From NCBI GenBank assembly GCA_012295275.1, contig CM022667.1, positions 19,344,001 through 19,408,000 of the forward strand: a stretch of DNA of 64,000 bases, read 5' to 3'. This stretch comes from Chrysomallon squamiferum (taxonomy: Eukaryota; Animalia; Mollusca). Of this stretch, positions 14,101 through 24,016 are shown piece by piece. How positions within the stretch are numbered: the stretch's first letter is position 1; each line of letters opens with the position of its first letter. Position numbers and translations under genes: made by a program. Below the pieces are notes generated by a model that made no database searches, was not told the origin of the DNA, and was given only the letters and a program-made list of their open reading frames with translations.

Positions 14101-17100
14101 TGTGTGTGTGTGTGTGTGTGTGTGTGTGTAAAATCAAAATAATTGATGAGATTTGACTTAATAATTTTCTGTAAACAATAATTAATCCAAGTTTACCTTT
14201 GTTACGTCAATAAAGAATAAAATCATCCTGACATTTTAGGATAAAGAATAAACAAAATAAGAAAAAGTATAATAAGAAGAAGAAGAAAATAATTTTATTT
14301 TGTTTATTATAAATTTTATAAATATTTATTGCTAAAATAAATAAAGTAAGAAATACATTTTTATAAAAAAAAAAAAATTATTATTATTTTAATTTGCTTC
14401 AATGCATCAGACGTTATCAGTTACAAATCGTTAAATAAATTTTAATATTCATCGACATAGCTGGATTTTTTGTTTGTTTGTTTTCTTTCCTAATTCGTTA
14501 TTTTCATTTTCTCTTGTTATGAGTGAACGAATAAATCTTCATATTCATTGTATACTGGCAGAAAAACCCTACGATCCTAATGTCCAGCATTTAAAGGTAG
14601 AAACAAAGAACAACTACAAAATGAACATGGTACTGCACACATCTTCGTGAACCCGGTAACCTTTGCGGTTCTTAGACTTTTCTACTGTGACCTTTACAAG
14701 CAAAACTAGTTCATGAAATCATTAGCACGTTTTAGCTAATTTACGTGTTTGATTAGGCCTCTGCGTTATCACTGCTGCAATACTCTATAACTATTCGCGA
14801 GTACCGTGAAGTGTGCAAATTTCAGTTTTCCTGAACTTTGCTCTGCTGACGTCAGTACAAACACGTGACAACGAAAACAGCAATATTGGTCTCAATAACT
14901 GCAGATGTTGTCTGTGTTTTGATTGTTACATCAGCGAGGACAGTTTCCGCGTCCGATCAAGTGGTTCGCAGTTTACTCGGAACCAACACAGACGACCAAT
15001 GACTCGGATACAAAACATGTTTTCTGGTTTAACAATAAATTATCTTTTGTGTACACTGACCTATATCATGACAATGTTCTACAGAACAGTTTATGTGGTC
15101 AGAATCGTGCGAGCAAACACATTTAAAATATGAGACCGGTGTCTTAGTCTTTTTGTTACTTCTAAAACTCATTTACTGAAAAGTGATTACTATTTTGACA
15201 TCAGCAGTCTCTCTCTCTCTCTCTCTCTCTCTCTCTCTCTCTCTCTCTCTCTCTCTCTCTCTCTCTCTCTCTCTCAGTTATTTATTTATTTGATTTCTTT
15301 TTCTCTGTTATTTTACACTCACCTTCTTTTTCACAACACAAAGGATGTATAACTTTTGCAGCGAATTTGTACTTGCACCATTTATCAGAGTTTTCTGTCA
15401 TAGCAGTCTTTATATCATCACAGTAGTTCTTTAACCACGGGCAGTCTGAAATATAATAATAATAAGAACAACAACAACAACAACAACTACAACAACAATA
15501 ATATGTATATAATAACAACAAGAATAACAATAATAACTGCAACAGTAAAAGCAATAATAATGATAACAATATCAGCAACTATAATAATATTAAAAATAAC
15601 GAAAAACAACAACAGTAAAAATAACGAGCGGAGCAGAAGCAGAGTAATGATGCGGACTATAATAATAATAAAGATCACGATCTAAATACTTGCTACGTGT
15701 CTGGCCAATGCTAAAAAATAATAACAATAATTATATTTTATTTGATCTTTTTTTTTTTTTTTTTTAAAGAGAAGAGGTGGAAAAATTCAATTTTTCATGG
15801 ATTAGAAAACAAAGGGAATCATTTTGTTATTTCACAAAATCATTTCTCGTTCAAGTTCATCTCAGAATGCTCGCACATAAATTTCTCTTCTCAAAACATC
15901 TGTGATCCTGGTTAAATAAAAACACAATTATTTATCCATTGTCGTTTAGGCCTTTGTAGTTGTTGTTCGTCCTAATTTGCAATTGGGACAAGGATTAAGA
16001 TCTTGTATGTTCGTACCGGACAGTGTTTTGTTGAGTGCTGTGTGTATTTCACATTCAAAGAAGAAAGCTGCACTTTGATGTTCTCACAAAACTGAATTAG
16101 TTTATAAATAAAGACTAACGAGGAATTTAGCAGAATAGGTGTGTGTGTGTGTGTGTGTGTGTGTGTGTGTGAGTGTGTATGTGTGTGTGTGTGTGTGTGG
16201 AGGGTGCATATGTGTGTGAGAGAGAAAGAGATGGAAAGCACCTGTGTTTGTATATATATATATTTGAATGTATTGTGTTTATCTGTATATGTTTGTGAGT
16301 GTAGATATGTGTGAATGAATGTCACTGTGTTTGTGTGTTTGGCTGTTTGTCTCTAAGTCTGTATGTACGTATATATATGTGGGTGTGGGTGTGTATGTAT
16401 GTATGTGTGTATCTATCTATCTATCTATCTATCTATCTATCTATCTATCTATATATATATGCGTGTATGTGTGTGTATGTGTACAAATGTGTGTACGAAT
16501 ATGTTTTAAGAAAATGTATATATATATATGAGGGTGTATGTGTATATATACATGTGTACCTTTTTCTCCTAACGTATTTTAACATTTATAACAACAACAA
16601 CAACAATAATTAATAAATAATAGGATCCGTGTACTCTTGCTATTATGACAAATACCACATTAATTAATGAATCAGTAATTCATTTATCATGTAGCTCTTG
16701 TTCACACCTTTCACAGAACCCTGCTAAAATGCGTACCAGTTGTCTGAGTTATAGTGTGTATGTCGTAAATAATAATAATAATAATAATAATAATAATAAT
16801 AATAATAATAATAATAATAATAAATTAATTAATTAATTAGTTAAAATTGTCTGGTTGTACATGTTTATTGTTTCATTTTAATGCAAGTTAACAACATCAT
16901 TCAGAAATGGATGTATTCCTGAAAGTCTCTGTTTGCGACAAATGCAAAAAGCAAAACCAGAATTATTGTGTTCTCATAGAAATAATGATTTTATTATTAC
17001 TATTATTATTATTATTATTATTATTATTATTATTATTATTATTATTATTATTATTATTATTATTATTTATTATTATTATTTTATTTATTATTATTTTATT

Positions 17101-23100: not shown

Positions 23101-24016
23101 GTATGTTTCTGTGACGACTGGCTTGCATTCACGATATTTGAGGTTTTATAATACTTTAGAATGTGTTGTAAGATAAAGCATTATAACAGATAATCACTGA
23201 GAACGAATGAAAACTATACGCAAAGTAAGAACTTAGTTAAAAAGACGATTATGAAAACAGTTTACAAAATCCAGTCTCTACATTTATTTCCAAAAAATCA
23301 TTGGCTTTCAGTATATTATCTTTCTTATAAATGTATATGAGATATTTAATGTCAACAAATATGATAAATTGTACACAGCTGTCACAAGTAGTTATTTTTC
23401 ACTTTAATTTCTGCGGTTTTTTTTTGTTTGTTTTTTTAATTTAATTTAATTCATTATTTATTTCATTATTTATTTCTCCTTCCCTTTTGTCTAGAAGTGA
23501 AATTCGCTTATTGCCGTATTCATTTTATTAATTATATATTTATATATTTATATCCCTATTATTACCACTGCTATTATTATTATTATTGTTGTTGTTGTTG
23601 TTGTTGTTTTTGTTGTTGTTACCGAGTTCCTGAAGTTGTTGCTGCTATTGTTGCCTGTGACGGTTATAGTATCTCTCTCTCTCTCTCTCTCTCTCTCTCT
23701 CTCTCTCTCATTATACATTTGTTTATGAAAAGAAAATGAAAACATATCAAAGAAATTAATGAAATAAAGTGAAGAAAAACTTACATAGCTGGATTTTCCT
23801 AGAGAATGTTTTAGTGTAGATTTTATCTTTCAAGTCTGAACATTTCCTGGATGTCTGTATTTCGCCCACAAAGTAAGTCCAGAACGAATTTCGTTTATTT
23901 GGATATTCTCCATAATTAAAGTCATTGTTCCATACGTCATAATGTGAGTTTGTTGGTGACGTCATACACAGAGACAACAGAAACACAAACATCCATCGAA
24001 AACACGAAACCTCCAT
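4987..24016 (-). CDS. Secreted multidomain serine protease gene: leader + 6-Cys domain + 7 TSP1 repeats + trypsin-like S1 domain (771 aa using the proximal leader and skipping the frameshifted TSP1 exon)
   Basis: GT-AG exon chain: 24016-23785 or 19333-19114, 15445-15323, 13989-13783, (13225-13012, out of phase), 12516-12316, 11939-11739, 10887-10687, 10120-9920, 9077-8874, 8192-8018, 7076-6949, 6353-6207, 5844-5690, 5139-4987(TAA). Phases are compatible throughout except for the bracketed exon. Confidence 0.9.
5690..5844 (-). CDS. Protease exon (S1 Asp189)
   Basis: (N)[51 protein letters not shown]|gtaagt. Confidence 0.93.
6207..6353 (-). CDS. Protease exon (catalytic Asp)
   Basis: (L)[48 protein letters not shown], phase 1-1. 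Confidence 0.92.
6949..7076 (-). CDS. Protease exon
   Basis: (E)[42 protein letters not shown], phase 2-1. Confidence 0.9.
8018..8192 (-). CDS. Protease exon with activation site and catalytic His
   Basis: (G)[57 protein letters not shown]|gtaagt. Confidence 0.95.
8499..8817. mobile_element. Degenerate pogo/Tigger-like (MER46-like) MITE in a protease intron
   Basis: Right end ...AAAGTTTCGGATTTCGG...CCGGATAATGGAATCTCAACCTG followed by TA. Degenerate left end GAGAATCCTTTATTCGAAATGCTAGGG. Family resemblance is from memory and was not searched. Confidence 0.6.
8874..9077 (-). CDS. TSP1 exon 7
   Basis: [26 protein letters not shown]...[17 protein letters not shown]...CDTNINCPA, 204 nt, phase 1-1. 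Confidence 0.93.
9920..10120 (-). CDS. TSP1 exon 6 (absent from the ORF track)
   Basis: [67 protein letters not shown], 201 nt, phase 1-1. Confidence 0.93.
10687..10887 (-). CDS. TSP1 exon 5
   Basis: [26 protein letters not shown]...CDTNTVCP, 201 nt, phase 1-1. Confidence 0.93.
11739..11939 (-). CDS. TSP1 exon 4
   Basis: [26 protein letters not shown]...CDTNIACV, 201 nt, phase 1-1. Confidence 0.93.
12316..12516 (-). CDS. TSP1 exon 3
   Basis: [26 protein letters not shown]...CDTNVVCR, 201 nt, phase 1-1. Confidence 0.93.
13012..13225 (-). CDS. TSP1 exon 2, out of phase by 1 nt (pseudo-exon or sequence error)
   Basis: [24 protein letters not shown]...[11 protein letters not shown]. Both available AG acceptors give 3n+1 lengths (214 or 211 nt). 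Confidence 0.75.
13783..13989 (-). CDS. TSP1 exon 1
   Basis: [27 protein letters not shown]...CNAPTTCTS, 207 nt, phase 1-1. Confidence 0.93.
15323..15445 (-). CDS. Shared exon 2: Cys-rich half-domain
   Basis: tttcag|(Y)[40 protein letters not shown](G|gtgagt), 123 nt, phase 1-1. Confidence 0.88.
19114..19333 (-). CDS. Leader exon A (proximal): signal peptide + RAKR furin site + 32-aa segment
   Basis: [73 protein letters not shown], then T|GTAAGT (220 nt). Confidence 0.88.
21953..22677 (-). mobile_element. Internally deleted hAT DNA transposon with a remnant C-terminal dimerisation domain
   Basis: Imperfect TIRs CAGGGGCGTAGCCAGG / CTTAACTAAGCCACTG and an 8-bp TSD GCAAAACC/GCAAAAAC. Minus-strand translation [44 protein letters not shown] matches the hATC pattern, with one stop. 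Confidence 0.9.
22691..22942. repeat. 61-bp tandem repeat, ~4 copies
   Basis: Unit ACATATTTGTGTATACTCTATCAGTCATACAGTAAATACACTGGTTATAGCACAGTGACAG. Confidence 0.92.
23785..24016 (-). CDS. Leader exon B (distal): signal peptide + KR site + 32-aa segment
   Basis: [77 protein letters not shown], then T|GTAAGT (232 nt). Confidence 0.82.

What the first reader, a model, noticed from the sequence alone, without database searches (positions are those of the whole stretch)
15323..24016. Two divergent, interchangeable leader exons upstream of one constant TSP1-protease body (variable-first-exon system)
Seen: exons 24016-23785 and 19333-19114 each have their own ATG, signal peptide, pro-segment ending in KR, and exactly 32 residues from a conserved Trp to the donor. 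[32 protein letters not shown] aligns ungapped to [32 protein letters not shown] with 10/32 identities. Both end T|GTAAGT, so either forms TAC-TGC (Y-C) with the single exon 15445-15323. I found no second copy of exon 2 between them. Both frames are intact despite deep divergence, which argues against exon B being a decayed relic. Known: variable first exons spliced to constant exons diversify clustered protocadherins and UGT1A. Inference: this secreted protease swaps the N-terminal half of its first domain by alternative promoter or exon choice, which could change target recognition (immunity, gamete or matrix binding). I know of no described example for a TSP1-trypsin protein.
Basis: partly seen in the sequence, partly recalled or inferred. 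Interest (0 to 1): 0.9.

Follow-up and report, generated by a model that had tools for sequence, protein, structure and literature searches.

The report
Snail protease with two swappable starts
In what is likely a deep-sea vent snail, two very different start exons sit in front of one shared exon of a predicted secreted protease gene; RNA shows the farther one spliced on and the nearer one is conserved in a related animal, so the gene likely makes two versions with different tips, a known trick seen here on a small domain that matches no known family.

Summary
Exons B (24016-23785) and A (19333-19114) are intact homologous leaders: signal peptide, KR, 32 residues at 10/32 identity, phase-1 GTAAGT donors. 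The window holds only one exon 2 (15445-15323). One RNA contig (run X3, depth 2.6) joins B to exon 2 and skips A. The A>exon 2 junction was not seen. A has a clear orthologue in another animal's assembly (20/32) and is covered, unspliced, by RNA contigs of two runs. Leader plus exon 2 form an ~80-aa, six-cysteine, predicted helical domain. Outside this window it turned up only in Gigantopelta aegis and one unnamed assembly, with no Pfam or PDB match. Caveats: TSP1 exon 2 is frameshifted as assembled, no RNA links exon 2 to the protease exons, separate promoters are untested, and B is a long branch with no orthologue found (weak search). The mechanism is a known kind: N-terminal tandem-exon substitution, with 39 human cases. 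There are two leaders, not a protocadherin-like array. Verdict: real, new member of a known kind, interest 0.42.

The parts
23785..24016 (-). Leader exon B (distal): ATG, hydrophobic signal-like core, pro-segment ending in dibasic KR, N-half of the six-Cys domain (1 Cys); phase-1 GTAAGT donor
   Evidence: spliced to exon 2 in an RNA contig of run X3 (checked)
19114..19333 (-). Leader exon A (proximal): ATG, signal-like core, pro-segment ending RAKR, N-half of the six-Cys domain; phase-1 GTAAGT donor
   Evidence: orthologue P0021; unspliced RNA-contig cover in X3 and X4; junction to exon 2 not seen
19334..19505 (-). Sequence upstream of A covered continuously with exon A by one RNA contig: candidate 5' UTR of A, or pre-mRNA/DNA
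   Evidence: run X4 record 15 (19149-19505, depth 4.85)
15323..15445 (-). Shared exon 2: C-half of the six-Cys domain (5 Cys), phase 1-1; single copy in the window
   Evidence: (53% to G. aegis P0005); RNA cover 15361-15443
13783..13989 (-). TSP1 exon T1 (phase 1-1)
13012..13225 (-). TSP1 exon T2, one base out of frame at its 5' end as assembled (skipped, null allele, or assembly error)
   Evidence: 39/52 identical to the start of G. aegis P0001
8874..12516 (-). TSP1 exons T3-T7 (12516-12316, 11939-11739, 10887-10687, 10120-9920, 9077-8874), all phase 1-1
4987..8192 (-). Trypsin-like S1 protease exons (8192-8018, 7076-6949, 6353-6207, 5844-5690, 5139-4987) with K|IVGG, His, Asp, Ser motifs and stop
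   Evidence: 75-90% identical per exon to G. aegis P0001
2410..2650 (-). Leader exon C, inferred to belong to the next tandem paralogue (its own exon 2 would lie beyond the window's left edge); not a third leader of this gene, since it lies downstream of the stop
   Evidence: 19/32 to the leader of G. aegis P0005, which carries its own exon-2 half and TSP1 repeats

Best explanation
Two homologous leader exons lie in tandem before one shared exon 2, exon B is spliced to it in RNA, and exon A likely is too, each likely from its own promoter, so the gene would give two predicted secreted TSP1-trypsin zymogens that differ only in signal peptide, pro-piece and the first half of a six-cysteine tip domain. 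Shown: homology, intact frames, matching donors and phase, a single exon 2, the B>exon 2 junction skipping A, conservation of A in another animal, and an intact catalytic triad. Inferred: an old duplication of only the first coding exon (A and B differ far more than A does from its orthologue); use of A; separate promoters; continuity into the protease by skipping or correcting exon T2; removal of the pro-piece at KR (furin-type site in A, plain dibasic site in B); and a disulfide from the leader's one cysteine to the constant half. The most likely role is that the tip domain is a docking or recognition module that directs the tethered protease to a microbial or matrix surface, with the leader choice setting tissue, processing route and binding face. 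I put this last step at about 0.35.
For:: X3 contig (223 nt, depth 2.6) matches exon 2 at 15361-15443 with 0 differences, then runs on as a 139-letter loose end. Of the 30 letters shown, the last 28 equal exon B 23785-23812; the junction codon reads TAT instead of TAC (silent). P0021 is an A orthologue (56% overall, 20/32 core, pro-piece conserved, same donor read-through ending; groups with A at 85/85). It lies on an ENA contig of the same length (512,905) as the one carrying TSP1-exon orthologue P0015. X4 contig over A has 1 silent change in 185 coding nt against 5 substitutions and 4 gap rows in 172 upstream nt (Fisher p=0.008, or 0.03 if merged to 7 events), and it crosses both acceptor-like AGs unspliced. 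B spliced onto A's upstream AGs hits a stop at codon 79 or 85, so both cannot be included. G. aegis P0005 shows leader + exon 2 as one contiguous domain; the T2-skipped models are open for 771 (A) and 775 (B) aa.
Against: The A>exon 2 junction was seen in 0 of 4 runs. X3's contig over A runs unspliced through the donor into the intron (19059-19210), and X4 covers A but not exon 2. The B junction rests on one low-depth contig with only 30 of 139 loose letters displayed. B is a long branch (1.45-1.52 against a median 0.45) and lacks the furin P4 Arg. T2 is frameshifted as assembled, the G. aegis orthologue model P0001 starts inside T2 without any leader, and no RNA links exon 2 to T1 or beyond. 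Promoter evidence is thin: one TATA-like word at 19743 for A and none within 700 nt for B, in 65% AT sequence. B has an acceptor-like AG 9 nt before its ATG. The X4 variant count comes from one contig under depth 5.
Confidence: 0.6

Rival explanations
1. A is the working leader; B is a duplicated leader under relaxed selection that still splices at low level but has no distinct function.
For: B is the long branch, has lost R-x-K-R, and its junction contig has depth 2.6.
Against: B keeps ATG, hydrophobic core, KR, W, C, F, the exact 32-residue register and the donor, with no stop or indel at ~31% identity to A. It is the only leader seen spliced.
Confidence: 0.15
2. The same two isoforms are made, but A and B are mutually exclusive internal exons fed by one promoter and a shared non-coding first exon, with B+A transcripts removed by NMD.
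For: Pyrimidine tract + AG lies 9 nt before B's ATG (first base 24025), and C has one at 2706. AGs ahead of A at 19373 and 19355 are visible. B+A joins give early stops.
Against: The X4 contig runs continuously from exon A to 172 nt upstream across those AGs. A's two AGs did not pass the 65% pyrimidine filter.
Confidence: 0.12
3. A does not join this exon 2. It is expressed unspliced as a 75-aa prepro-peptide (reading through the donor ends C-K-stop and supplies a second cysteine), or it splices elsewhere; B is the gene's only leader.
For: X3 RNA contig crosses A's donor unspliced, and X4 covers A without exon 2. P0021 ends with the same C-K.
Against: C-K-stop follows automatically from a phase-1 T|GTAAGTAA donor. 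A lies inside B's intron, so pre-mRNA explains the read-through. A keeps the register of a half-domain that P0005 shows continuing into exon 2. No other exon 2 lies in the window.
Confidence: 0.1
4. A and B were placed side by side by mis-assembly (two haplotypes or two genes collapsed).
For: The region is rich in microsatellites, and no second assembly of this species could be checked.
Against: A and B share no blastn similarity, so they are not alleles. One run (X3) holds both A-region and B>exon 2 contigs with 0 listed differences.
Confidence: 0.03

Closest known systems
N-terminal tandem exon duplication-derived substitutions (PMC8373072: 39 of 236 human events; e.g. GCNT2, KCNAB1)
   Same: Homologous 5' coding exons in tandem, one used per transcript, joined to common exons; almost always a pair
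   Different: Mollusc gene; the swapped exon carries signal peptide, pro-piece and half of a disulfide-bonded domain of no known family; promoter use not shown here
Chelicerate sDscam 5' cassettes (PMC4835542); clustered protocadherins and UGT1A (as described in PMC8373072)
   Same: Variable leader-bearing 5' unit spliced to constant exons; genes in tandem clusters
   Different: Those have up to 40 cassettes encoding whole domains and demonstrated promoters; here two leaders, a half-domain swap, and a protease rather than a receptor or transferase
FGFR third-Ig-domain half swap, including the arthropod N-half version (PMC8373072)
   Same: Half of one disulfide-bonded domain is exchanged
   Different: FGFR exons are internal and mutually exclusive; here the exon is the first coding exon
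Gigantopelta aegis XP_041376992.1 'coadhesin-like' (P0001) and XP_041376994.1 'hemicentin-1-like' (P0005)
   Same: P0001 matches the TSP1-trypsin body (79% to T5, 75-90% per protease exon); P0005 has a C-type leader, the full six-Cys domain and TSP1 repeats; both on a contig of the same length
   Different: P0001 begins inside T2 and has no leader or exon 2, so the two-leader arrangement is not in that model; the names come from TSP1 similarity only
Cnidarian ShK-TSR-trypsin proteins (Ap_Trypsin-like, PMC5446238)
   Same: Small Cys-rich N-terminal module + TSP1 repeats + C-terminal trypsin; discussed for symbiosis and nematocysts
   Different: Tip domain here has different Cys spacing (C-19-C-6-C-14-C-12-CC) and no Pfam ShK hit; no alternative leaders in the passages read; function unresolved there too

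Membership tests
N-terminal tandem exon duplication-derived substitution | Homologous coding exons in tandem at the 5' end of one gene | tested here: met
   10/32, 0 of 100,000 shuffles; leave-one-out profile E=7e-4
N-terminal tandem exon duplication-derived substitution | Each exon is spliced in frame to the same downstream exon | tested here: inconclusive
   Phase fits for both; junction seen for B in 1 of 4 runs, for A in 0 of 4
N-terminal tandem exon duplication-derived substitution | One or the other exon, not both, in a coding transcript | tested here: met
   B>exon 2 skips A; B+A joins stop at codon 79 or 85
N-terminal tandem exon duplication-derived substitution | Choice made by alternative promoters | not testable with these tools
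   Contigs cannot show starts; X4 cover of 172 nt upstream of A is only a hint
N-terminal tandem exon duplication-derived substitution | Both exons conserved across species (typical, not strictly defining) | tested here: inconclusive
   A: orthologue P0021. B: none among 5 hits, but the search would find only 60 of 300 simulated B orthologues at nominal 60% identity
Protocadherin/UGT1A/sDscam variable-cassette arrays | Many tandem variable cassettes before one constant region | tested here: not met
   Two leaders only between the upstream gene and exon 2; no further hit below E=0.3
Protocadherin/UGT1A/sDscam variable-cassette arrays | Variable unit encodes whole domain(s) | tested here: not met
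   Leader gives 1 of 6 Cys and about half of the domain seen whole in P0005
Protocadherin/UGT1A/sDscam variable-cassette arrays | Promoter before each cassette; cell- or tissue-specific choice | not testable with these tools
   No CAGE or raw reads available
S1A trypsin-like serine protease | His/Asp/Ser triad, activation site, Asp in S1 pocket | tested here: met
   TAGHC, NDIA, GKDSCQGDSGGP and KIVGG all in the open model; Pfam PF00089. Motif meanings are textbook knowledge
TSP1-repeat protein | PF00090 repeats | tested here: met
   T1 passes the Pfam cut-off; seven similar exons
Known small six-Cys domains (ShK, big defensin, saposin; names recalled) | Pfam or structural match of the tip domain | tested here: inconclusive
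   No Pfam family over P0005's N-terminal domain at E<=5; no PDB match at E<=0.001; best VIA Z 4.3

The most novel reading that the evidence does not exclude
Vent snails have built a variable-tip recognition protease on a new six-cysteine helical domain. Promoter choice swaps half of the binding domain and its processing site. B is under diversifying selection to meet a different microbial or symbiont surface, and related genomes hold further leaders, possibly shared between the tandem paralogues: a miniature, independently evolved sDscam/protocadherin-like system on a protease.
Probability: 0.12. Interest if true: 0.75.

Novelty: new member of a known kind. Interest (0 to 1): 0.42.

Why it matters
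It adds an RNA-supported mollusc case of N-terminal homologous exon swapping, a class described as rare but usually functional. The swap splits a domain that matches no Pfam family or solved fold and seems restricted to a narrow snail lineage. The G. aegis protein model of the same body lacks the leaders entirely. The two predicted tips differ at two thirds of the swapped residues on an identical C-half, so they are a ready-made pair for finding out what the domain binds. That could bear on host-microbe recognition in vent snails, but no evidence for that role was obtained.

Tried and rejected
No whole genome is held, so no genome-wide leader scan was possible. The run search listed no RNA holder for 13700-15500; this is no evidence either way. 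X1, X2 and X4 gave no cover of exon 2, and X1 and X2 gave only repeat-like matches near A: absence not interpretable. Word search with exon 2 found no candidate; with P0005 62-150 it found only itself. The profile search of 1.84 billion representatives gave 5 hits: P0005, P0021, P0022, and two repeat proteins (P0023, P0024) that I dropped as chance matches after reading them. No B orthologue was among them, which is uninformative given 20% simulated sensitivity at nominal 60% identity. Metagenome scans: exon A, 0 of 547 candidates confirmed; T5, 24 loci at 37-54% identity, generic TSP1, not used. Exact look-ups of A, B and C reading frames: 0 of 6 in the collection. Tip domain: no Pfam family, no PDB sequence match (best E=0.71), no fold match, no usable Atlas hit; none of this shows the fold is new. 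Atlas features for B gave only sub-0.9 prepro-hormone look-alikes. A six-row tree resolves only A+P0021. A phase-0 donor for T1 that would rescue T2 does not exist before the in-frame stop. The sclerite-proteome 'coadhesin-like' protein in PMC11871041 is astacin-CUB-TSP1, not this gene; PF00089 occurs 0 times in the stored, cut supplement. Earlier findings: 3 answered look-ups, nothing. Leader C as a third variable exon of this gene was rejected because it lies downstream of the stop. No complex prediction was run.
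Full report
OBSERVATION. The window is 29.5% GC animal DNA full of microsatellites. On the minus strand, exon B (24016-23785, 232 nt) and exon A (19333-19114, 220 nt) each start with ATG, are open, and end T|GTAAGT in phase 1. 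Exon 2 (15445-15323) has a CAG acceptor and is phase 1-1. Both leaders have a hydrophobic core (best 11-residue Kyte-Doolittle mean 3.13 for A, 2.36 for B) and a KR; no signal-peptide predictor was available. The last 32 residues align without gaps at 10/32, and 0 of 100,000 shuffles reached the score. A profile lacking B finds B at E=7e-4 among 3,253 window peptides, next hit E=0.59. HMM, tblastn and blastn find one exon 2 and three leaders (A, B, C) in the window. A and B share no blastn similarity, so the duplication is old or B has changed fast.

THE GENE BODY. Downstream lie seven TSP1 exons and five trypsin exons ending at 4987. T2 (13225-13012) is one base out of register: its GG-TGG-type motif lies 18 nt from the exon start, against 14 or 17 in the other six. 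T1 has no phase-0 donor. With T2 included, the model stops early. With T2 skipped, the frame is open for 771 aa (A) or 775 aa (B) and holds KIVGG, TAGHC, NDIA and GKDSCQGDSGGP. By textbook S1A knowledge this is a trypsin-type zymogen with an intact triad. T2 is as conserved as its neighbours (39/52 to G. aegis P0001), so an assembly error or recent allele is as plausible as skipping. No RNA evidence links exon 2 to the rest.

RNA. The run search listed four coded runs. On exon 2, 1 of 4 runs gave a contig: X3, 223 nt, depth 2.6, identical over 15361-15443, then a 139-letter loose end. Of the 30 letters displayed, the first two stand for 15444-15445 with one silent change (TAC to TAT) and the other 28 equal exon B from its donor, 23785-23812. 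This is the B>exon 2 junction at the predicted GT-AG boundaries, skipping A. On 19050-20200, X3 has a contig at 19059-19210 that crosses A's donor unspliced. X4 has one at 19149-19505 that covers most of A and 172 nt upstream without a joint. The A>exon 2 junction was seen in 0 of 4 runs. Both contigs could be A transcripts, pre-mRNA of B's intron, or DNA. The X4 contig differs from the window by 1 silent change in 185 coding nt, against 5 substitutions and 4 gap rows in 172 upstream nt (p=0.008, or 0.03 when merged). It is a single contig under depth 5.

RELATIVES. The best match to T5 among 19 hits is Gigantopelta aegis XP_041376992.1 (P0001, 79%), with 75-90% identity per protease exon. The animal is therefore likely a related vent snail; I did not establish the species. 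P0001 starts inside T2 and has no leader. G. aegis XP_041376994.1 (P0005) has a C-type leader (19/32 to C) continuing into an exon-2-like half (53%) and TSP1 repeats. This shows that leader + exon 2 is one ~80-aa domain with six cysteines, one from the leader and five from exon 2, and that C at 2650-2410 opens the next tandem paralogue. The profile search of 1.84 billion representatives gave 5 hits: P0005; P0021, an A orthologue (56%, 20/32 core; 85/85 with A); P0022, a C-type leader; and two repeat proteins I discarded. P0021 and the TSP1-exon orthologue P0015 list the same longest-contig length (512,905), and P0022 and P0020 list 401,416. This suggests the same locus in another animal's assembly; the DNA could not be fetched. 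No B orthologue appeared, but simulated B orthologues at nominal 60% identity pass that search only 60 times in 300 (A: 242 in 300). B is a long branch.

THE TIP DOMAIN. AlphaFold on the P0005 domain with a five-row alignment gives an all-helical model, mean pLDDT 82.7, pTM 0.74. Pfam, PDB sequence, Foldseek, VIA (best Z 4.3 of 48,161 chains) and the Atlas name no family. This does not prove a new fold. Six conserved cysteines imply that the leader's cysteine bonds to the constant half (inference). A and C have R-x-K-R while B has only KR; by known convertase preferences B would be processed differently or less efficiently (inference).

MECHANISM. Most likely (0.6): the first coding exon was duplicated, each copy has its own promoter, and whichever is used splices to exon 2. 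B>exon 2 is shown. B+A joins give stops at codon 79 or 85. A>exon 2, the promoters and the link to the protease are inferred. Rivals: B is a relaxed but still spliced duplicate (0.15); mutually exclusive exons after a shared non-coding exon (0.12; B has an acceptor-like AG 9 nt before its ATG); A is not joined to this exon 2 (0.1); mis-assembly (0.03). My best guess for function is a docking tip that directs the protease to a microbial or matrix target (about 0.35); no call tests it.

COMPARISON WITH PRINT. PMC8373072 (passages, and part 1 of 4 of Results) lists 39 N-terminal homologous-exon substitutions among 236 in human, almost all pairs. It attributes them to alternative promoters and notes half-domain swaps in FGFR. 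PMC4835542 (passages) describes sDscam 5' cassettes, 2 to at least 40 per gene, each with a promoter. PMC5446238 (passages) describes cnidarian ShK-TSR-trypsin proteins of unresolved function. PMC11871041 (passages, and keyword searches of the supplements, whose file 3 is cut when stored; two PDFs unreadable) has no TSP1-trypsin entry in what I could search. PMC12758981 (passages) gave no precedent. Other papers were seen only as search listings. Ten searches found no description of alternative leaders on a TSP1-trypsin protein or of this domain. The library lacks most subscription papers, and I did not read the snails' genome papers or their supplements, which may bear on this.

VERDICT. A real feature whose riskiest prediction is supported by RNA. 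It works like a two-member variable-first-exon gene, but it fails the 'many cassettes, whole domain' tests for a protocadherin/sDscam array. New member of a known kind, on an uncharacterised lineage-restricted domain; interest 0.42.

Noticed in passing
window 13225-13012 (-): TSP1 exon T2 is one base out of frame at its 5' end yet 75% identical to G. aegis; the G. aegis model also begins inside this exon. Assembly error, null allele or skipped exon.
   Followed up: partly
window 2650-2410 (-): Third homologous leader, inferred to open a tandem paralogue like G. aegis XP_041376994.1; the rest lies beyond the window.
   Followed up: yes
window 23899-23885 (-) vs 19240-19229 (-): B has a plain KR while A and C have the full R-x-K-R furin-type site.
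   Followed up: no
window 12516-10687 (-): TSP1 exons T3-T5 are nearly identical at the DNA level over their first half, and G. aegis has several near-identical copies too: recent exon duplication or homogenisation.
   Followed up: no
window about 57200-30130 (-): Large multi-exon gene upstream on the same strand; one exon (44986-45150) hits WD40. It leaves about 6 kb before exon B.
   Followed up: partly
window 22942-22263 (-): Between B and A: a 61-bp unit repeated 4.1 times, next to a short frame resembling a hAT-transposase dimerisation segment (recalled resemblance; no Pfam hit at E<=0.1).
   Followed up: partly
window about 1100-2390: About 1.3 kb degenerate (TAC)n array directly after leader C's donor.
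   Followed up: no
window about 31830-33130: About 1.3 kb minisatellite of ~45-50 bp units whose first copy overlaps the 3' end of a coding exon of the upstream gene.
   Followed up: no
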